Source: Euglena gracilis
Taxonomy: Eukaryota
Direction of reading: 5' to 3'
Assembly (NCBI GenBank): GCA_039621445.1
Contig: CP154954.1
Span: 31,148,012 to 31,212,011 of the forward strand
Length of the DNA: 64,000 nt
The notes under the pieces are model-generated. The model ran no database searches. It was not told the DNA's origin and was given only the letters and a program-made list of their open reading frames with translations. Each line of letters begins with the position of its first letter. Positions within the stretch are counted from its first letter, which is position 1. Shown here in pieces: positions 17,587-63,715 of the stretch. The translations under genes were made by a program, and so were the position numbers.

Positions 17587-23726
<6,140 letters not shown>

Positions 23727-54400: not shown

Positions 54401-56697
54401 GCCCGTGCTCGCTGTCGAGGGAGAGGGTCGGCCGTATGGGGACTGGGTTGTGAGGTGTTTGCCATCTGCAGGGATCTGTGAACAGAGCCTGGCCACCCTC
54501 ATAACGGAACATCTTCGAGGTTTCTGAGTTCTCCGGGAGCTGGCAGGCAAAATGGGAGTCAAAACTTCATTCGTGCATTCCGCTGCTGAACCACCTCTGT
54601 ATCATTTCAATGATGCCACAAGAGACCAGGATGCTCTCCGACAGCAAAAATAAAGAAATTAATAAGTTGTACTTGCAGAATGGTTTCCAATAACGCTGGC
54701 CCACTTGGACGTTTGGTGTAACCATGCCAAAAACTTTGCCCTCACTTGCAAAAGTTTGGAAACTGTCACACTTGTGACTGTTCCCAAGATGTGTATGCAT
54801 GCACATGCACACGCACACACATATACACACATGCACACACACACACACACACGCACGCACGCACGCATGCACACATGCACGCACGCATGCACACACACAT
54901 GCACACACACACACACGCTCACACACACACACACACGACACTGGCTGAGGTGGCCACACAATGTCGCGAAGGCAAGGGAGGCAATGTATCATGAACAAAC
55001 TTGAGTTGTGAAAAATAAATAATTGAAGAAGGACCCAGGGAGTTATTGACGACGCCTGACATGAAATTAGATGCAATTCTCTCCTAACACCAACACACAG
55101 CACATACAGAAATATTGGAGCCGACCCTTTGCAGACCAGGCCTTCGGCAGACGCCGGCTCACCCAACACATGTGAGTCACAGCAGTGGTGTGCTGGTGCA
55201 CCATCCGGGCCGAGGACACGGCCTCCGCGGTGGCCGAGGCGCTGAACCGCACCACGCACTTCCCGTCCTCCACCCGGTGGTCGCAGGGCCTCCCCGCCTC
55301 CAGCCCCCCCCACGCACAAAAAAAAAGTAACGGGAAAGGCAGATGAATAAAATGAAGAACACAAATAGAATGCGCCACTGTAGGACATGAAAGACAGATA
55401 GTTTGCGTGTGACCTGGCACAGCGTTCAACGGCCCGGGGCCTGGGCAGAGGTGCACCTCGCCGTTGGCCAGTCCCGCCGCCAGAAGCTTGCCGGTGGGGC
55501 TCCACAGCAGTGCCGTCACCTCCGCCGGGGTCGTCAGCTGGAACAGCCGCTGGAACGACAGCGCGTTGTGCAGGACGGTCCACGGCCGGTCACACCGCGA
55601 TGAGACGTGACCCCAAAATGACTCCGATCCACTCACTCCGTCTTGGGGGGGGGGGGGTTCAGATCGACACACCTTGCACCTTGCACTCAATTGCCTCCTG
55701 AAAATGTGGTGGATGGATCGCAATGCAACGCATCGTTCTCAAGATACAATATCGCTTTCAGTGGAGCGGCTGGCTAAGACTTGCCCGGGGGGGTGGCCAG
55801 CATACAATTGCTTACCGACCCCCGGGGGGGGGGGGGGGGGGTCACTCCACTTTTTTTTAAAAACCAGTCAGTCACTCATTTTCAAAAAACCAGCCAGTCA
55901 CTACCCCCCCCCCCCCTGGGGGAGGTCGGCCACTCAGAAAAACGGCCACTTTCCAGTCACTTTAGGCCATTTTAAGCCCAAAAAAATTTTCGGCGCCAGG
56001 GTCACTCAAGCCACTTTTGCCCACTCCTGGCCGACCCCCCCGGGGGGGGGGGGGGGGGGGATCGCGGGCCAAAACCCAGTCAGTCCTTCTGAAAAACCCA
56101 GCCCCCCCCCCGGGGGGGGGGGGGGGGTTGGTCAGTGCTTAAGCAATTGTCTGGTGGCCAGCCGGGGGCGATGCTGCTCCGCGCCGCCACGGCGACCAGG
56201 TCCATCTCATGGCACAGTGTGACGAGGGAGATCGGGCCCGGCACGGCCTTGCTGTGGAGCAGCCGCATCGGTCCTGACCCGCCGCCCTGCCGCAGCGGGT
56301 CAGGCGCCCACAGGGATGGCGGGTGCCCTGCGGATGGGTGGGACAGCCATGGGGCGGGGAGCTGCTTGTGGGAGGAGGGCGGGAGAGGTGGGGACTGGGG
56401 AGAGACTTCCCCTGAGATAGCCTTAGGGGTAGGCAAATTTTCCAACAATTTTGGCCCAGTCCTTATCCTTATCCTTATCCTTATCCGGTTCTTTGACCGT
56501 CCGCAGAACCGAAGTTTTCCCACCCTCTTACTGTCGAGGTAGGAGGGGAGGTCTGACCCCCCCTCTCCGTGTTGGGGGTCTGGTCCCGCTTCCCACACAT
56601 CCCTGGCCGTGTGCTGTGGGGCCACCGGCTCCGGGGAACCCCAACGGTCAAACAGTCCTTGCACTTCCCCCTGCAGTTCTGCGACACTAGACAACAT
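36484..56697 (-). CDS. APC4: Anaphase-promoting complex subunit 4 (WD40 plus helical domain), about 20 exons
   Basis: Spliced N-terminus [68 protein letters not shown] (exons 56327-56169, 55575-55446, 55277-~55140) fits the ANAPC4 WD40 pattern. Internal exons are in the expected order: ~54460-54305, ~49405-49365 (HGWFPIQHL), ~49000-48900, ~48495-48380, ~47640-47560, ~46590-46510, ~45265-45175, ~44330-44260 (YGSFGLH), ~42870-42730 (ELLHWL), ~40960-40585, ~39540-39400. C-terminus is [31 protein letters not shown] with TGA at 36484-36486. First exon 56697-56532 is tentative. Confidence 0.85.
36581..37383 (-). other. Non-conventional (euglenid-type) intron, last APC4 intron
   Basis: G|CGCAGCCCCCT ... 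AGGGGGCTGTCGTCCG|T. Purine|pyrimidine at both junctions, CAGCCCCCT pairs with AGGGGGCTG, and removal gives in-frame GTACVATAQ. Confidence 0.75.
39997..40170. mobile_element. 174-bp hAT-like MITE made of GTGATACA repeats
   Basis: 25-bp TIR CAGACCGCCATTTAGTGTGTATCAC (1 mismatch); TSD CCTTGGAA. Confidence 0.88.
50568..51087. repeat. 18-bp minisatellite GCATCTTGTCCAGCATCT, ~28 degenerate copies
   Basis: Directly visible inside an APC4 intron; the wider region is bracketed by (CAGCATCGCC)n at ~50180 and ~51465-51555. Confidence 0.92.
51634..51874. mobile_element. hAT-like MITE
   Basis: TIR CAGGGGTTTTTT; TSD TTCCTGAT. Confidence 0.83.
52320..54140. repeat. Degenerate (GA)/(TA) low-complexity tract
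   Basis: About 1.8 kb almost devoid of C, intronic in APC4. Confidence 0.9.
55278..55445 (-). other. Non-conventional intron in APC4
   Basis: G|CCCAGG ... CCCTGCGACCA|C. CAG/CTG pairing; removal gives EVHLCRVEDG. Confidence 0.72.
55576..56168 (-). other. Non-conventional intron in APC4
   Basis: G|CCCCCGGCTGGCCAC ... GTGACCGGCCGTGGACCG|T; removal gives [11 protein letters not shown]. Confidence 0.72.
55801..56153. mobile_element. hAT-like MITE inside a non-conventional APC4 intron
   Basis: TIR CATACAATTGCTTA / TAAGCAATTGTCTG; TSD GTGGCCAG; near-identical to 22497-22845. Confidence 0.87.
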
Positions 56698-57374: not shown

Positions 57375-58048
57375 GGGGGGGGGGGCAATGTGACTGAATG
57401 GTTTTGGAAAAAATGGAAAATGAGCAGGTAAGCAAAGGTGTGGCTGGGACAAACGGCCACCCAGTTCCAAAGGCTCCGGGACATTGCTGCACCCACGGAA
57501 GAAAGCATGGCTTTCCGTTTCTTTTTTTGTTGCTCAAGCGGTCGATGGTGGGGTGGGGGGTCAAAGTGGTTGGGAAGAGGAAAGCAAATGCGGGGAAAAC
57601 GCCCTGCTCCACTGCCGAGAATTCTCTTCCAACTGTGCTCCGTTTTTCCGTCGCTGTCAAGTCCAACCCGGCACAAGTCGCAGTCAGCAGGTATCCATTT
57701 CTACGTGTAATTGTTGTTGACTTTAAAATGCACTCATATTATAACCTTTTGAATTATGAAAAACTATCATCATTTTCCCTCCAATGTTGGATTTCCCCTT
57801 TTTTTTCACATCATTTTCCCCATAGTTTTGTCTCCCGCAGTTTTGTTCGCGCTGTAGACAAAATCTGGAGGGACTGCTTGGTATGGTTTGGGCTGGCGCA
57901 CAAGGTCAAATAACAATGCGTCAAAACAGGGTCACCAAAGAGGTCACAGTAATGAAATGAAAAGAAAGGCAATGGAAGGTAATGATGTGCTGTACAATCA
58001 TGCCTCCTCTGCGGCTTCATGGGGTTTTTTTTACAATGCAGATGAAAG

Positions 58049-58112
<64 letters not shown>

Positions 58113-58201: not shown

Positions 58202-58794
58202 TCAAACACAGCGGACGCAGACACGGTTGGTGTTGGTGAGGGCAAGGCGGGGGCAACATTTGTCGCAGGCCACGCAGCCGCACACCCGGCAGTGGTGGCG
58301 GCGCCGGACAAATGTGAACTGCGAACAGCGAACGAAAGGAAGTTGCGAAGGGGGGCAGGGAGGTTTGCAGGCAGCCGGAAAGGGCCCGACAGAATCCCTG
58401 ACCACTTTCTTCACAAATGCAAATTTGGGGAAATGTCGTACAATGTTCTGCAGTACAAAATTCCAATCACACCTGGTCAACCACAGATTTGCGCAATTGA
58501 CAGATTGAACAATGCAAGAAGCAAAAGAATGTCCCACGGATGTGTCAGCGACAATGCTGACTAATGAATTCTCATCTCAACACCCACGGAGGGATTAAAA
58601 CACCTGTTGAACCGCAACTGCGGGCACAGCTGCAGGGGGGGGGGAACCTCCTTGCGGCAGACACTGCAGTGGGTGCTGTCGGGCTCCCACTGCTCCCGCC
58701 GGATCCAAACTTTTGGCGCATCACCGTCAGGGGTCCGCTCTTGCACCTTGGCACGGAGAGGGGATGCGAAGGGTGACTGACACAACACCACCAT
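58202..58794 (-). CDS. Small FYVE zinc-finger protein (87 aa, 2 exons)
   Basis: Exon 58794-58648 (49 codons, WEPD...CSVC), a GT-AG intron, then exon 58318-58202 (FTFVRRRHHCRVCGCVACDKC...RVCVRC*). WxxD, RRHHCR and RVC signatures and eight Zn-ligand cysteines are present. Confidence 0.88.
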
Positions 58795-58949
58795 GGAAGC
58801 TGGAGACCTAAACACAGACTTAAGCAAAATTCGACCCAAGGGATTCTTGGTGTTTTCCAACAAATGTTTAGATACATGCATTAAAACAAAAACATGTATG
58901 CACATGTGTTCACTGAATTGAAAACAAGGACACTGGCGATAAGAAAATT

Positions 58950-59505
58950 CCCAAAGCGTTGTATTTTTTCTTCTTCGGGAAAAAGGTCTGTATCTTTGGA
59001 TGTGACCCAAAATTTCACCCAACCCACGTAATGGACATTTTGGAGTGGGCTTATCGCAAATAACCGCAGGGATATTTCGAAATTAATGCGGCCGGTGTGC
59101 CATGTACGGAGCATAGCCTTGCAAAAACGACAGGGAGCAGATGCATGCAAACGGCAGATCGCCTTGTTGAAAAAACATTGGAGACCAGGAATAGTTTCAA
59201 CCCAAATTGTGGTGGGTTGAAAATCCCCGTACGGGATATTTACCCAAATGGCAATGTGTTCGAAATTTGAATTTCGTTGATATTGATTATTGCCAGTTTT
59301 CTGATTGGGGGACCAAAAACGCCCGTATTTGGGGGAGTGAAAATCTCCTAAGTTTGAAGGACAAAATTTGTGATGGAAAAACCTGCCCAGATATGGCGTT
59401 GAAGGAGAGGGGCAGGTGGACGCACATGGAGCAATTGGGTGGGAGGCATATGCACATCAAAAATGGAGAAAGCCACAAAAATTGATTGAATATCTGCTTT
59501 CGGCC
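58950..59505 (+). pseudogene. C5-cytosine DNA methyltransferase pseudogene
   Basis: Frameshift-corrected translation: PKAL..FSGKRSV/SLD..DPKFHPTHVMDILEWAYRK*PQGYFEINAAGVPCTEHSLAKTTG...ADRLVEKTLE...FNP/LWWVENPRTGYL...VDIDYCQFSDWG..ARIWG.../KWRKPQKLIEYL. This gives a motif I remnant, motif IV (PC), motif VI (ENP), motif VIII-like and motif X-like segments in canonical order. Confidence 0.8.
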
Positions 59506-59539
59506 CTTGATGTTAAGGAGGAGAAATTTTCCTTCGAAA

Positions 59540-59925
59540 GGGAGGATTATGCCATGAGAAACTCGACTGAGAAGAATTTTCAAAAGAGAGCCGAAATGGA
59601 TTGCTTTGCCCCAATCAAAAATTCTCAATATGCTTTTTTAGACAAAAGAAGAAAAAGCCTTGAGCATTGATTGCGGGAGGCGGGGGGCATGGTGTGGTTG
59701 AACCCCCTTGGCCTTTGTGGCATAGAGTGGCAAAAAAGTTGCAAAGAACCCCGTGTGATGCAATATGCATTGTTCCCGATTGGCAAAGGGAATGGGTGAG
59801 AGAAATTGTGTGAAACACAACACAAAAAATTGTATTTTCAGGCTGGTACAACGCCTTTCGAAGTGGACTGGAAACCCATGAGAGGTGTGACGTGGGGAGT
59901 TTGGGTCTTGTTGATAGAAGGTACA
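59540..59925 (+). pseudogene. N6-adenine DNA methyltransferase (phage/DIRS Dam-like) pseudogene
   Basis: EDYAMR...MDCFAPIKN.../VWLNP[P]WPLWHRVAKKLQRTPCDAICIVPDWQREWV. Shows a DxFA motif, NPPW restored by one added C at ~59703-59707, and a VPxW motif. Confidence 0.72.
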
Positions 59926-60031
59926 AGCCTCCCACCAGCACTAACGCGCCTGAGGAACCAAAGGTTTCACGTTTGAAGTCATGCATGGTGAAGAAAAGGC
60001 AATCACCCACAGGATCAGCAAGGTTTTTTAA

Positions 60032-60410
60032 GATCGGCAACTTTTGCTTCGCACAAAGGTGATTTTGGTCAACGGGGAGGAACGGGATATGTATATTTTG
60101 GTGGATGCAGGGGCGGAAGCAAACCCCTTATGGCAAGGGTTCATAAGCGATCATTTGATGCACACGGCTGAACATCCCCTTAAGTTTGAAATGGCTGACG
60201 GCCAACTTTAAGTGGGGGGACAAATGCACTAAGGTGAGAATGAAGTGGCTGGGTGAGGAGAGTAATGGGGCACCACCCGAGTGCGTTGAGTATGAAATAT
60301 TCGTATTTTACGAAGCAAATGAAAAGGTGGATGCCGCTTTGTCGTTCCCATGGCTTTCCCGAGCAAAGCTTGGAATTTTCCCACATCACCGAGCTTTGGT
60401 TTTAGAGAAC
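60032..60410 (+). pseudogene. Retropepsin-like aspartic protease pseudogene
   Basis: QLLLRTKVILVNGEERDMYILVDAGAEAN...PLKFEMADGQL*/...FYEANEKVDAALSFPWL. Shows an LVD[T>A]GA active-site motif at 60104, an ADG flap and a terminal D-x-x-L-x-x-PWL motif. Confidence 0.75.
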
Positions 60411-61203
60411 CCTGAAGAGAGGGAGAAAGACTGGAAGACCTTTGACTGCATCAACCTTTCATAGTCGGCCTTGAAAGTCACCACCTGAGATATTGTGCGA
60501 GATGGAACTGTAAAAAAAAATATTGGAAAATATTGAATAAGAATGATAGTGTTCGCCTCCTCCCGCAGAAGTGGTACACATTCCCAAAACTGCAATTTCC
60601 GCAATTTCCCGATTTTTTTTCCCGCAATGATTACAACTGCCTCCGATATCCATCCTCTTCCACGCATATATTACGTCAATTAACACTTATCATGTTGCAT
60701 TCAATACACTATCACAGCACACTTCAAAGTATCAATTCTTTTCATTTTGCAGCATTTGTGCATGTTTCGAGCTGTTGTTTACACTTTTCAAACAAAAAAA
60801 ATACAAAAAACAGGATTTTTGTACTTTTGGGAACATGCTGATTTTAGAAATTTGGAAATTGTTGGCTGAAAAATCCGAAAATGACTAAAAATTGACAAAA
60901 AGTTTGGTCTCAGGTTAAATCTGGTCCAGAATTTTTATAAACTGAAAAAACAATTCCCATCAGAAATTGGGAAAAAGCCCTAAAAAAGGCCATGGAATCG
61001 CCAAATTTTGTCAAAATTTGTAAAACTTGGCAAATTTTGGCAACAAAGTAACAAAAGGCACCTGGGTTCCTTTGTAAAACGTTTAAAGAATGGGCGGAAC
61101 CCGTTTCGCCTTTCATTTTCAGATTTCAGGTTCGTGCGGGAGGATTGCGAAGAGGGGAGGAAACTGCGGAAAATTTCGAAAATTGTGGGGGAAATTGCAG
61201 ATA

Positions 61204-63715
61204 TCAATTTCCCCTCTCTGCTGATTGAAAATTTTCAATGTTGATTTTTAAGTGGATGAAAACGTTGGGCTTTGGAAATGTGATGAACACACACCATGAT
61301 GAATGCACTTCCCCCAGTGGTGAACGTTTGGCTCGCCGTGCCCAGGACGAGACCCGCCCGCGCAGCGCTCGGCACACCTCGGGAAACGCGCGGTAGTACT
61401 GGAACGGGTCCTCCAGCAGGGGCCGGGCGGCCTCCGCCACCTCCCGCTTGCGCGCCTCCGCCGCCGCGGCGTCCCCTTTGGCGAGGAAGACGAAGGCGTG
61501 GGCCATCGGGCGCTGGACCTGCGGCGGGCAGGGGCACAAAAGAGCCATTGGATGGACGCTGTGTTCCCGCCGGGCGAGTTGGCCAGCACTGGGGACCCTG
61601 GCAGCGGGGCAGGACCTCCCAGGGTCTCGGGCATGACAGTCCCCTGGGTGGCCGGCCACAGTTCCGTGGCTGCTTCGGCTGCCGAGGAATCAACAGACGG
61701 GCTGCACGGCGGGGTGGCAAAAAGGTGAAATAAGACGGTTCGGAGATCTCGGGGGCTGCAAACGGGTGTCGATGCACAGTTGGGGGCCGGTGGTGTAAAA
61801 GATGGAAGGGGGCCGCGCTGTCTGGAAACGAAAAAAAAAAATGAAGGCCCCGCCAGCAGAAAACCCTCAGAAGGGAGAGAAGAGGAAGGGGCCGGACCTT
61901 CTCCAGAATCTCCCGCGCCTCCTCCTCGTGGATCATCTCCTTGGCCTCCTTCTCCACGCCCTTCGCCAAAGCGTCGTACTGCTGGAGGAACTCCTGTGTG
62001 GCAAGCGGCACAAGAGCAAAGCGCCGTCACATCTCACTCAGGGGGTGACGATTGCACACGATTGCGGAACCGTTGAGAGGATAAGGAGGAGGGACGTAAA
62101 GAGGGAAAGGAAGACAAGGAGGAAGGGAAAGGATAAGCGATGGTCCAAGGATGCCAGGGATAACTCTTTCCCCCAAAATCGACCTGTGCTTTCGGCCAAT
62201 TTTTCTGTGGACTTATCACTGAATGTGCCAGGACCAAACGTTGACTAAAGATCCGAAACAACACGCAAATGGGGGGGGGGGCAGCCAATAATGCACAACG
62301 CAAAGAATTGCAAAGAAAATGCAAATTCATTCCCTTCAGCCCTCAGGAAGGCTGCTCTGCTGCCACCAAACGCAGTTGAGAGGTCGTCCACAAAATTTGT
62401 AAAAATTACCATTGCGAACAAAACAAAGAAGCGGCCAGGGGCTAAACTAGACAGTGGTGGTGGCAACGCGCCCATGCAGGGTGGGAACAGGGGGAGGGCA
62501 TGCCTGCACTTGGGGGTAGCGGACGTACAGCTCCGCCTTTGGGCCAATGAGGCACTCTGTGGCGATCTGCCGTTTTCCAAAAAGCAATTTTGAAAATTGG
62601 GTTCGATGGGTGGGAACATGGCTGGGCTGGGTCCATAGAGGCCAGCATCAGCAATTGTGGACTTGCATAAGACGGGGTCTGCCCAGGCTTGCTTAAGGAC
62701 CCCCGGGGGGGGGGGGGGGGGGGGTGGGGTAGGGGTGGTCGGGGGGGTACTGGCTAGCCCAATGGTAGACACTGGAAAAAGGGACTAGCTAGACCCCCCC
62801 CTCCCCCACGGGGGGGGGGGGTCCGGGGTCCCCGGATGGAAAAAAATCGCGCGCGCCGGAGGAAAAAATGGGTTTTTAACAGGTTTTTGGCTGATTTTGT
62901 TACCAAAAATTCCCAAAAAATGGCCAAAACCGGGCAGGTTTTGGCCATTTTGGGGGCCCAAAAAAAAAGTTCGGCGTCTTTGCCGGTCATGGAAAAAAAA
63001 TTCCATAGCTAGCCCTGTAGCAGACCCCCCGGGGGGGGGGGGGGTCTGCTAGAAAACCACTAGCCAAATGTGGACTTGCATCGGGACTGGGTCTGCCCCC
63101 CCCCCAATCCCCCCCCCAATGTGGCTGGCATTGGGGAACCTCCCCCAAATGCAAACAACCCGTTGCTTGAACTTCACCGGGCAGGCTGAAAGGTGGCTGA
63201 ACTTTGGGCAAAACAACAAAGAAATGCCTCTTGTGATGAAGGAAAGGGGTGGCATTTTTTTTGACGAAAAACGCCTGTCTGCCAGCCCAAAAAAATGAGC
63301 AATGGTCGTCAAGTTGGTTGGGTGATTTTGTTGCTGATTGCTTTCGATTGGAGCGGAGATCTTCCTTCGCTTTCCCTAAATTTTAGCTTCATTTCCAGAG
63401 GTTTCTTAATTTTGGACTTCGCGGTGGTGCCGGGGGGGGGGGGGCTTCAATTTGGGTGTCGGTCGGTTCGGCCCCACAGGTTGCTGAAAATTGGGGGTTA
63501 CTCACAGCGGGAGGAGAGGATGGCCGCTGGAGGGCGGGGGGGGGGGGAGCACGGCCCCACCTGCTGGCCCTGCCGGCGACCCCGGGCCCGCTCCAAGTCG
63601 CGAAGCACCCGGTGACAGCGGGCGAGGGCGTCCTGCATCTCGCGGTACCGGATGGCCGCCTCCGCCTGGGCGGGTGCCGCCAGGGCCCCGGCCCGGTTGT
63701 CGAGAAGAAGGCTGA
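61204..63715 (-). CDS. Hypothetical alpha-helical protein, 3' part (gene probably begins beyond the window)
   Basis: GC3-rich exons ~63715-63561 (CAG|GT donor), 61993-61898 (32 codons, AG/GT flanked, EFLQQYDALAKGVEKEAKEMIHEEEAREILEK) and from 61518 (VQRPMAHAFVFLAKG...LLEDPFQYYRAFPEV). Stop position uncertain. Confidence 0.6.

What the first reader, a model, noticed from the sequence alone, without database searches (positions are those of the whole stretch)
58950..60464. Fossil retroelement polyprotein fusing a C5-cytosine MTase, an N6-adenine MTase and a retropepsin
Seen: after correcting a few frameshifts the plus strand reads C5-MTase (GVPCTE, WVENP, DYC, KWRKPQKLIEYL), then N6-MTase (DCFA, WLNP[P]W, VPDW), then aspartic protease (ILVDAGAE, PWL). 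The C5 motif X-like segment and the N6 DCFA motif share one uninterrupted frame (ORF 59416-59670), so the two domains were fused. Established: DIRS elements carry a Dam-like MT domain but usually no protease; C5-MTases have been captured by retrotransposons in dinoflagellates and charophytes; retropepsins typify LTR elements. Inference: this is a euglenid retrotransposon lineage carrying both 5mC and 6mA writers upstream of the protease, perhaps to methylate its own cDNA. I do not know of this architecture being described, but I cannot search to confirm that.
Basis: partly seen in the sequence, partly recalled or inferred. Interest (0 to 1): 0.88.

Follow-up and report, generated by a model that had tools for sequence, protein, structure and literature searches.

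The report
Dead dual-methylase retrotransposon fragment in intron
This is a broken 1.5-kb piece of an LTR retrotransposon that encodes both a cytosine and an adenine DNA methyltransferase ahead of its protease; it lies inside an intron of an expressed host gene, and the element type was described in a 2026 preprint.

Summary
Window 58,941-60,431 (+) aligns colinearly with residues 183-670 of an intact 1,911-aa polyprotein (P0004). Identity is 231 of 473 aligned residues, with 7 frameshifts and 3 in-frame stops. P0004 reads C5-cytosine MTase, Dam-like MTase, aspartic protease, RT, RNase H, integrase, chromodomain. Three more long proteins (P0003, P0156, P0157) share this order in single ORFs, so the domains are fused, not nested insertions. 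The C5 module folds with pLDDT 96-98 and matches DNMT3, DNMT1 and M.HhaI. The Dam part passes Pfam's threshold in relatives. The protease is supported only below threshold.

The window copy has no RT, integrase or chromodomain. It lies wholly inside a 1,693-nt GT-AG intron (58,747-60,439) of an expressed minus-strand FYVE-type gene, antisense to it, with almost no RNA over it.

The architecture is not new. bioRxiv 10.64898/2026.05.21.726589 names Euglena "EpiLTRs", which carry DAM, DNMT and a chromodomain.

Two side observations follow. The compact C5 module has 30-46% identical stand-alone relatives on virophage- and polinton-like contigs. Module order varies among distant relatives.

The parts
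58941..58976 (+). Degenerate remnant of C5-MTase motif I (SAM-binding FxGxG region), with an internal deletion relative to intact relatives
   Evidence: Frame read. Comparison with the motif-I segment of P0004/P0002. Repeat-level DNA depth rises in bin 58920-59003.
58977..59452 (+). Compact C5-cytosine DNA methyltransferase module (motif IV PC 59100-59105, motif VI ENP 59219-59227, DYC..RIW motif VIII region from 59285). Broken by stops at 59061 and 59192 and a frameshift at 59188.
   Evidence: tblastn and frameshift-aware alignment to P0004 aa 183-342, 56% identity in the best segment. Relatives hit Pfam PF00145 above cut-off. The AF2 model matches DNMT3/DNMT1/M.HhaI.
59374..59670 (+). Uninterrupted ORF that carries the end of the C5 module (KWRKPQKLIEYLL) and the start of the Dam-like domain (DCFA 59599-59610). 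This is the fusion junction.
   Evidence: ORF list. 71% identical to P0001, where the same junction sits in one ORF.
59560..59940 (+). Dam-like (DIRS-type) N6-adenine MTase-like domain. The NPPW catalytic motif is split by a frameshift at 59702; there is a stop at 59668 and a further frameshift at 59811.
   Evidence: Alignment to P0004 aa about 381-515. Pfam Dam PF05869 is above cut-off in P0001, P0003, P0004, P0006, P0156 and P0157. The P0016 model of this domain has pLDDT 80-95 and a class I MTase fold.
60035..60416 (+). Retropepsin-like aspartic protease (active-site triplet reads DAG at 60104-60112 instead of DTG; PWL flap region). Frameshifts at 60034 and 60209.
   Evidence: Alignment to P0004 aa about 545-670. 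Sub-threshold aspartyl-protease Pfam hits at this region in 8 relatives. In the ESM Atlas, 10 of 10 best family-bearing hits are RVP_2/gag-asp_proteas/RVP.
58747..60439 (-). 1,693-nt GT-AG intron of an expressed host gene. It contains the whole retroelement fragment in antisense orientation.
   Evidence: RNA-read joint 58744->60438 (cut +2, ends CT..AC on +): 17 reads in X21 and 7 in X24, all 7 with first mate on +. Boundaries checked.
58648..58746 (-). Host exon (part of a FYVE-type zinc finger coding region)
   Evidence: RNA depth about 14-17x. Spliced to an exon ending at 58318. The spliced frame is open through WxxD...RRHHC. Pfam FYVE scores 25.6 bits on ORF 58202-58576.
60440..60484 (-). 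Host exon upstream (in the gene's direction) of the intron that holds the fossil
   Evidence: RNA depth about 6x. Loose ends at 60486 match 61380 onward. Intron 60485-61377 has CT..AC ends.

Best explanation
Window 58,941-60,431 (+) is an inert, mutated internal fragment of a Ty3/gypsy, chromovirus-like LTR retrotransposon of the 'EpiLTR' kind. In intact members the Pol polyprotein starts with a compact (about 200 aa) C5-cytosine DNA methyltransferase. This is fused in frame to a DIRS-type Dam-like adenine-MTase domain and followed by retropepsin, RT, RNase H, DDE integrase and a chromodomain. Only the C5-Dam-protease part survives here. It carries 7 frameshifts and 3 stops, sits antisense inside a GT-AG intron of an expressed FYVE-type host gene, and is removed with that intron, so it does nothing now.

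Shown: the homology, the colinearity, the fusion in intact relatives, the folds of the two MTase modules, the intronic location, and the high copy number of the family in the same organism's DNA runs.

Inferred for the living family: the two MTases are made as part of Pol and act on the element's own new DNA or insertion site, so that new copies carry host-like 5mC and 6mA marks, while the chromodomain steers integration. The catalytic motifs of the C5 module are strongly conserved, which argues for activity. No activity has been measured.
For: Colinear frameshift-aware alignment to P0004 aa 183-670: 231 of 473 identical, 7 frameshifts, 3 stops (tblastn).

P0004 Pfam order: DNA_methylase 166-274 (28.2 bits, cut-off 22), Dam 381-445 (44.2, cut-off 28.1), RVT_1 855-1021, RNase H 1095-1239, Integrase_H2C2 1468-1515, rve 1542-1642, Chromo 1843-1879.

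P0003, P0156 and P0157 show the same order. P0001 carries the C5/Dam junction in one ORF, 71-83% identical to the window pieces.

AF2 model of P0004 155-525: the C5 part has pLDDT 96-98. Foldseek gave 194 PDB matches at E<=1e-3, and the best listed are DNMT3B/3A/3C, DNMT1, M.HhaI and M.HaeIII (best 7.5e-9).

Motif conservation in a 116-row alignment: PC Cys 55 of 57, ENP Glu 72 of 74, motif I glycines 38 of 44 and 33 of 38, motif VIII Arg 107 of 114.

Intron: RNA joint 58744->60438 in 17 + 7 reads, exon depth 6-17x, depth over the fossil at most 1.4. The DNA run X1 shows flank depth about 90 against 1,378-30,976 summed depth over the fossil, with 1,471 contig pieces at >=80% likeness.

No RT, RNase H or integrase match to P0004 elsewhere in the window. 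No second copy in the window.

The preprint 10.64898/2026.05.21.726589 describes Euglena LTR elements with DAM + DNMT + chromodomain, and a higher share of 6mA-methylated DAM-LTR copies in E. gracilis.
Against: The window's own single-frame pieces hit none of the three families in Pfam (11 of 11 pieces), so all domain names come by homology to relatives.

Pfam DNA_methylase hits in relatives cover only the first third of the profile at 19-29 bits, and the profile search against PDB sequences is marginal (best E 0.018).

The protease never reaches a Pfam cut-off, and its part of the second model is low-confidence.

The better Dam model matches only generic class I MTases weakly (best 3.3e-4, PCIF1).

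The window fragment has no RT, IN, chromodomain or LTR, so its class rests on relatives 56-59% identical in the C5 part (49% over the whole 183-670 alignment to P0004).

I could not compare it with the preprint's sequences (supplements closed) or confirm the organism.

Function is unmeasured. The preprint reports that the DAM proteins it expressed in E. coli added no 6mA, and that LTR expression in E. gracilis was low or undetectable.
Confidence: 0.9

Rival explanations
1. The three segments are independent nested insertions or a chance mosaic (a C5-MTase gene fragment, a DIRS MT fragment and an LTR-element protease) that never belonged to one ORF.
For: The window copy is broken by 7 frameshifts, so contiguity cannot be read from it alone. 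The preprint notes that nested insertions and chimeric TEs are a concern in E. gracilis. Distant relatives show other module orders.
Against: One gap-poor colinear alignment spans all three segments. The same order occurs in single ORFs in P0003, P0004, P0156 and P0157, on separate contigs of 6.3-14.2 kb, and in the more distant P0016. ORF 59374-59670 itself bridges C5 and Dam.
Confidence: 0.03
2. The fragment derives from a DIRS-type (tyrosine-recombinase) element, the classical carrier of the Dam-like MT domain, not from an LTR/Ty3 element.
For: The Dam-like domain is of the kind first known from DIRS, and the preprint reports mixed DIRS/LTR clades in Euglena. The window lacks the integrase region that would decide the question.
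Against: Both near relatives that extend through the integrase core (P0004 and P0157, 56-59% identity class) carry rve and a chromodomain and no tyrosine recombinase; P0156 stops at the integrase zinc-binding domain (18.3 bits, below cut-off). A retropepsin follows the MTases.
Confidence: 0.04
3. The C5 segment is an endogenised virophage or polinton-like-virus methyltransferase gene, not part of a retroelement.
For: Stand-alone homologues (30-46% identity to P0004) sit on 77 low-GC metagenome loci and 6 IMG/VR loci. Some of these carry an A32-type ATPase, pPolB or the Sputnik-type capsid.
Against: The window's C5 part is 56-59% identical to the retroelement forms and runs directly into the Dam and protease segments. 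In the tree, the 62 virus-like rows are one side of a branch (SH-aLRT 99), apart from all retroelement rows. No capsid, ATPase or pPolB was found among the 122 window ORFs scanned.
Confidence: 0.02
4. In the living family the MTase-like domains are not enzymes but DNA- or chromatin-binding targeting modules.
For: The preprint states that eukaryotic DAMs align only with the TR-2 to CD-2 part of prokaryotic DAMs, and that those tested added no 6mA in E. coli. The C5 module is unusually short, about 200 aa.
Against: The catalytic Cys, the ENV-like Glu, motif I glycines and the NPP triplet are conserved (preprint). The preprint reports a higher proportion of 6mA-methylated DAM-LTR insertions in E. 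gracilis.
Confidence: 0.25

Closest known systems
Euglena gracilis 'EpiLTR' (DAM + DNMT + chromodomain LTR retrotransposons; bioRxiv 10.64898/2026.05.21.726589)
   Same: The same set of modules occurs in the intact relatives of the window copy: Dam-like PF05869, C5 DNMT PF00145, Ty3-type RT/RH/IN and a chromodomain.
   Different: The window copy is only the C5-Dam-protease part and is dead. The main text of the preprint does not give the domain order and never mentions the protease ('protease' 0 occurrences). No sequence comparison was possible because supplements are closed.
Cymbomonas tetramitiformis EpiLTR (same preprint)
   Same: It has dual 5mC/6mA MTase modules plus a chromodomain. The preprint finds its DNMT module monophyletic with the Euglena one.
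   Different: There the DNMT is appended at the 3' end of pol. Here both MTases lie at the N-terminus, before the protease.
DIRS retrotransposon MT domain (Dam-like)
   Same: It shows the same DxFA ... NPPW ... PxW pattern and matches Pfam Dam. The preprint derives LTR-borne DAMs from DIRS.
   Different: DIRS elements use a tyrosine recombinase. The relatives here have a DDE integrase, a chromodomain and a protease.
Retrotransposon-borne DNMTs described earlier (SymbioDIRS-DNMT3, SymbioLINE-DNMT, streptophyte Gypsy-DNMT3), as listed in the preprint
   Same: A C5-MTase captured into a retroelement polyprotein.
   Different: The preprint calls the EpiLTR DNMT acquisition distinct from these. Here the module is a minimal MTase of about 200 aa fused to a Dam-like domain.
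Stand-alone C5-MTases of virophages and polinton-like viruses (for example the putative cytosine MTase of CpV-PLV Moe, PMC6459981; passages read)
   Same: Proteins of 190-240 aa, 30-46% identical to the retroelement module over its whole length, with the same PC, ENP, DYC..KPTR and C..C..H pattern.
   Different: They are separate genes on low-GC viral contigs with a Sputnik-type capsid, A32 ATPase, pPolB or D5-like primase, with no Dam, protease or RT next to them. I did not compare with CpV-PLV Moe itself.

Membership tests
EpiLTR / DAM-LTR retrotransposon (preprint 10.64898/2026.05.21.726589) | Dam-like adenine-MTase domain (PF05869) in the element's ORF | tested here: met
   The window segment about 59560-59940 aligns to the Dam region of P0004. 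PF05869 is above cut-off in P0001 (54.9 bits), P0003, P0004, P0006, P0156 and P0157. The window pieces alone give no Pfam hit.
EpiLTR / DAM-LTR retrotransposon (preprint 10.64898/2026.05.21.726589) | C5 DNMT domain in the same element | tested here: met
   Window 58977-59452 aligns to P0004 183-342. PF00145 is above cut-off in P0002, P0003, P0004 and P0156. The fold matches DNMTs.
EpiLTR / DAM-LTR retrotransposon (preprint 10.64898/2026.05.21.726589) | Chromodomain and Ty3/gypsy RT-RH-IN | tested here: inconclusive
   Absent from the window: no match to P0004 beyond aa 670. Present in the nearest full-length relatives P0004 and P0157.
EpiLTR / DAM-LTR retrotransposon (preprint 10.64898/2026.05.21.726589) | Long terminal repeats; identity to the published family sequences | not testable with these tools
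C5-cytosine DNA methyltransferase (PF00145, DNMT fold) | Motifs I (FxGxG), IV (PC), VI (ENV) and VIII (QxRxR), and the DNMT fold | tested here: met
   Conservation in the 116-row alignment. Foldseek top matches are DNMT3/DNMT1/M.HhaI, best 7.5e-9. In the window, PC and ENP survive, while motif I and motif VIII are damaged. The motif names are recalled from general knowledge of the family.
Dam family PF05869 / DIRS MT domain | NPP(W/Y/F) catalytic motif, Pfam score above gathering cut-off, MTase fold | tested here: met
   Pfam as above. The NPPW is intact in P0001, P0003 and P0004. The P0016 domain model has pLDDT 80-95 and matches adenine-N6 MTases PCIF1 and KsgA, but only weakly (3.3e-4 to 6e-3). 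In the window the motif is split by a frameshift.
Retropepsin (peptidase A2) | D-T/S-G active site in a fold of about 100 aa; profile match | tested here: inconclusive
   DTG is present in P0003, P0004, P0005 and P0016; the window reads DAG. Pfam hits to gag-asp_proteas, Asp_protease_2, RVP and Peptidase_A3 occur in 8 relatives, all below cut-off. The ESM Atlas lead gives 10 of 10 retropepsin families. No confident structure was obtained.
DIRS retrotransposon | Tyrosine recombase instead of a DDE integrase | tested here: not met
   P0004 and P0157 carry Integrase_H2C2 + rve + Chromo, and P0156 has a below-cutoff Integrase_H2C2 hit. No tyrosine-recombinase family was listed at E<=0.01. The window itself lacks this region.

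The most novel reading that the evidence does not exclude
The minimal C5-MTase of these retrotransposons may belong to one gene family with the stand-alone MTases of virophages and polinton-like viruses. That would mean a methylase module has moved between small DNA viruses of protists and LTR retrotransposons. In the retroelement, the module would act fused to the Dam-like domain as a two-mark writer on the element's own new DNA before or at integration. The variable module order among relatives (C5-Dam-PR, PR-C5-Dam, Dam-PR-C5, Dam-C5-PR, C5-PR-Dam, C5-RT) would then record repeated cut-and-paste of these modules inside Pol.
Probability: 0.3. Interest if true: 0.65.

Novelty: already known. 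Interest (0 to 1): 0.33.

Why it matters
An element that carries its own 5mC writer, 6mA writer and chromatin reader is a striking case of a transposon equipped to deal with the host epigenome. A May 2026 preprint had already described it, so this locus adds only a dead, intronic example. It shows that the family is old enough to leave decayed fragments inside genes, and that the family is highly repeated in the organism's DNA runs.

Three points may go beyond the preprint's main text. Both MTases sit upstream of the protease. The C5 module has close stand-alone relatives in virophage- and polinton-like viruses. Module order is shuffled among distant relatives.

Tried and rejected
- **Pfam on window pieces.** Eleven single-frame pieces gave nothing relevant; the pieces are too short and decayed.
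- **Closed or unavailable sources.** No own genome is held.
- **Second copy or LTR in the window.** blastn and tblastx of 58801-60600 against the window found only self matches.
- **First related-loci query.** The 14-row alignment was too diverse. It was repeated with 5 close rows.
- **Profile against PDB sequences.** Only marginal DNMT1 hits, best E 0.018.
- **Protease fold.** The protease part of the P0016 model has pLDDT about 50-70, and the Foldseek list is dominated by the MTase domain. No retropepsin appears among the rows listed, so there is no verdict on the fold.
- **Prokaryotic relatives of the C5 module.** 92 pattern matches and 0 relatives in one genome each of 185,579 species. The scan finds only sequences that carry the two search patterns, so this is weak evidence of absence.
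- **Expression.** No RNA holder was listed for the stretch. The runs guessed to be RNA (X15 and others) may be DNA.
- **A non-canonical left intron.** I first thought intron 58319-58648 lacked GT-AG. With the exon start at 58648 the intron is 58319-58647 with CT..AC ends, and the frame is open.
- **Direction of transfer.** The tree is unrooted, so I make no claim on whether the module moved from viruses to retroelements or the reverse.
Full report
**1. The observation.** KWRKPQKLIEYLL and DCFA both lie in the stop-to-stop ORF 59374-59670. None of 11 single-frame pieces hits a methyltransferase or protease family in Pfam. The window holds no second copy.

**2. Relatives.**
- A search with ORF 59374-59670 among longer proteins gave one hit out of 247 candidates, P0001 (185 aa, 53 of 75 identical). 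In it one ORF runs from the DYCQF..KPTRIWGS block through KWRMPQNLIEYLL into DCFA..WLNPPW. It scores 54.9 bits on Pfam Dam, PF05869, against a cut-off of 28.1.
- A search with ORF 59195-59485 gave 5 hits out of 12 candidates. They include P0004 (1,911 aa) and P0003 (1,020 aa).
- Pfam on P0004 gives DNA_methylase 166-274, Dam 381-445, RVT_1 855-1021, RNase H 1095-1239, Integrase_H2C2 1468-1515, rve 1542-1642 and Chromo 1843-1879.
- A search with the protease region of P0004 among proteins of 1,051-3,345 aa gave 5 out of 125 candidates. P0156 and P0157 are colinear with P0004 from the C5 module onward. P0158 and P0159 start at P0004 residues 471 and 543, so they say nothing about the MTases.
- All four informative long proteins therefore read C5-Dam-PR-RT in one ORF.

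**3. Anatomy of the window copy.** A frameshift-aware alignment to P0004 residues 150-720 aligns 58977-60416 to residues 183-670. It shows 231 of 473 identities, frameshifts at 59188, 59448, 59702, 59811, 59948, 60034 and 60209, and stops at 59061, 59192 and 59668.
- A degenerate motif-I remnant lies at about 58941-58976.
- The NPPW motif is split by the 59702 frameshift.
- The protease triplet reads DAG.
- tblastn of the whole of P0004 against the whole window finds nothing beyond residue 670.
The copy is thus a 5'- and 3'-truncated internal fragment.

**4. Domain identity.**
- *C5 module.* The AF2 model of P0004 155-525 (116-row alignment) has pLDDT 96-98 over the C5 module. Foldseek against the PDB gives 194 matches at E<=1e-3, and the best listed are DNMT3B/3A/3C, DNMT1, M.HhaI and M.HaeIII (best 7.5e-9). 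A sequence profile against PDB chains is only marginal: 16 of 17 matches are DNMT1, best E 0.018.
- *Motif conservation.* PC Cys 55 of 57, ENP Glu 72 of 74, motif VIII Arg 107 of 114. Four near-invariant residues (C134, C161, C166, H179 of the modelled segment) may form a zinc site; this is an inference.
In the P0016 model it reaches pLDDT 80-95 and matches class I MTases that act on adenine N6 (PCIF1, KsgA), but only weakly.
- *Protease.* Only sub-threshold aspartyl-protease Pfam hits in 8 relatives, plus an ESM Atlas lead in which 10 of the 10 best family-bearing hits are retropepsin families.

**5. Genomic setting.** The stretch is held by 20 runs of one coded organism from 17 studies. I laid two RNA raw-read runs, one run guessed to be RNA, and one DNA run on 58500-61000 at >=80% likeness.
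- *Splice joint.* The RNA reads show a joint from 58744 to 60438 that skips 1,693 bases, with ends CT..AC on the + strand, that is GT..AG on the minus strand. It is seen in 17 reads from 15 starts in X21 and 7 reads in X24, all 7 with the first mate on +.
- *RNA depth.* Exon depth is 6-17x. Depth over the fossil is at most 1.4.
- *Neighbouring exons.* Loose ends lead to exons ending at 58318 and starting at 61380. Introns 58319-58647, 58747-60439 and 60485-61377 all have CT..AC ends.
- *Host gene.* The spliced frame is open through WxxD...RRHHC. ORF 58202-58576 (-) scores 25.6 bits on Pfam FYVE, against a cut-off of 27.8.
- *Conclusion.* The fossil fills most of an intron of an expressed minus-strand FYVE-type gene, antisense to it.
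- *Copy number.* In the DNA run, flank depth is about 90 while the fossil bins sum to 1,378-30,976 from 1,471 laid pieces. The family is therefore highly repeated. The summed depth is not a copy number.

**6. Literature.** A full-text search found bioRxiv 10.64898/2026.05.21.726589, dated 22 May 2026. I read its outline, Results and Discussion and searched it for terms.
- It reports DAM domains in non-DIRS LTR elements.
- It defines "EpiLTRs": Cymbomonas and Euglena gracilis LTR retrotransposons with DAM, DNMT and a chromodomain.
- It places the DNMT module sister to DNMT4 in a tree of eukaryotic DNMT families.
- It finds no 6mA gain from the DAMs it expressed in E. coli.
- It finds a higher share of 6mA-methylated DAM-LTR copies, and low LTR expression, in E. 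gracilis.
- It proposes that DAM marks reverse-transcription intermediates.
A second search found no other paper on this architecture among those listed. The main text never mentions the protease. Its figures and supplements were not seen, so the Euglena domain order may well be drawn there.

**7. Side observations.**
- *Stand-alone C5 homologues.* A pattern scan of metagenome contigs with a 5-row alignment gave 79 loci. Only L001 and L002 (GC about 0.5) look retroelement-like. The other 77 (GC 0.20-0.45) carry just a stand-alone homologue of the C5 module, 30-46% identical to P0004 166-362.
- *Their genomic context.* Pfam on 61 ORFs of 9 long loci found Pox_A32 ATPase (L027, L039), protein-primed DNA_pol_B_2 (L027), PIF1-like helicases (L021, L035) and DUF5906 (L051).
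- *IMG/VR.* Six more loci turned up; L083 is the same contig as L074. L081 carries the Sputnik-type major capsid (1.5e-67), a V18/19 minor capsid and a D5-like primase.
- *Prokaryotes.* The same scan of one genome each of 185,579 species found no relative.
- *Tree.* The C5 tree has 127 rows. I kept 73 of 85 loci and 63 of 154 proteins that covered at least 150 of 206 residues without a stop, then removed identical rows. The 62 virus-like rows fall on one side of a branch (SH-aLRT 99). Retroelement-linked and C5-only proteins are interleaved on the other side. The tree is unrooted, so no direction is claimed.
- *Published parallel.* A putative cytosine MTase in a polinton-like virus is in print (PMC6459981; passages read).
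- *Module order.* Order differs among distant representatives: P0091 and P0101 read PR-C5-Dam, P0104 and P0129 Dam-PR-C5, P0030 Dam-C5-PR, P0019 C5-PR-Dam, P0038 C5-RT, and P0005 C5-PR. Some of these could be rearranged or chimeric copies.

**8. Verdict.** The architecture is already described, and this copy is an inert intronic fragment. Interest is modest for the locus itself. The virophage/PLV link and the module shuffling are leads worth a proper rooted analysis.

Noticed in passing
L003-L079 (metagenome loci) and L080-L085 (IMG/VR), e.g. L081:9992-10603, L082:5640-6251, L027:9995-10630: A stand-alone C5-MTase of about 200 aa, 30-46% identical to the retrotransposon's C5 module, sits on low-GC aquatic contigs. 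These contigs carry virophage or polinton-like hallmarks: Sputnik-type MCP and minor capsid on L081; A32 ATPase on L027 and L039; pPolB on L027; D5-like primase on L081 and L082. The same scan found none in prokaryote genomes. In an unrooted tree the viral forms are one side of a well-supported branch.
   Followed up: partly
Proteins P0019, P0030, P0038, P0091, P0101, P0104, P0129, P0005; locus L002: The order of the C5, Dam and protease modules differs among distant relatives (PR-C5-Dam, Dam-PR-C5, Dam-C5-PR, C5-PR-Dam). Some lack Dam (C5-PR) or lack both Dam and protease (C5-RT). This is either real module shuffling or rearranged/chimeric copies.
   Followed up: partly
window 58202-61470, minus strand: An expressed host gene has exons at ..-58318, 58648-58746, 60440-60484 and 61378-.., separated by three GT-AG introns. 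The spliced frame encodes a FYVE-type zinc finger (WxxD ... RRHHCRxCG). The retroelement fragment makes up most of the middle intron and ends within about 25 nt of its 5' splice site.
   Followed up: partly
window 60768-60935: A second, unrelated high-copy repeat: summed DNA contig depth is 27,000-48,000 against about 90 in unique flanks. It has some RNA coverage and many rearranged joints in the DNA run.
   Followed up: no
window 57960-58110: A (GT/CA)n and (GA/TC)n microsatellite tract shows up as poly-(CV), poly-(ER) and poly-(HT) ORF translations.
   Followed up: no
window 21389-21841 (-) and 55070-55738 (-): Besides the FYVE ORF (58202-58576, which I added to the scan), these are the only two of the 122 scanned ORFs with Pfam hits at E<=1e-4: an RRM_1 fragment and an ANAPC4_WD40-like fragment. 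This fits an intron-rich, gene-poor eukaryotic window.
   Followed up: no
modelled segment of P0004 (aa 155-525), alignment A3: Four near-invariant residues in the short region that replaces the usual target-recognition domain suggest a zinc-binding knuckle: Cys in DYC 108 of 114, CxxxxC 114 of 114 and 112 of 114, His 109 of 114. Distances in the model were not checked.
   Followed up: no
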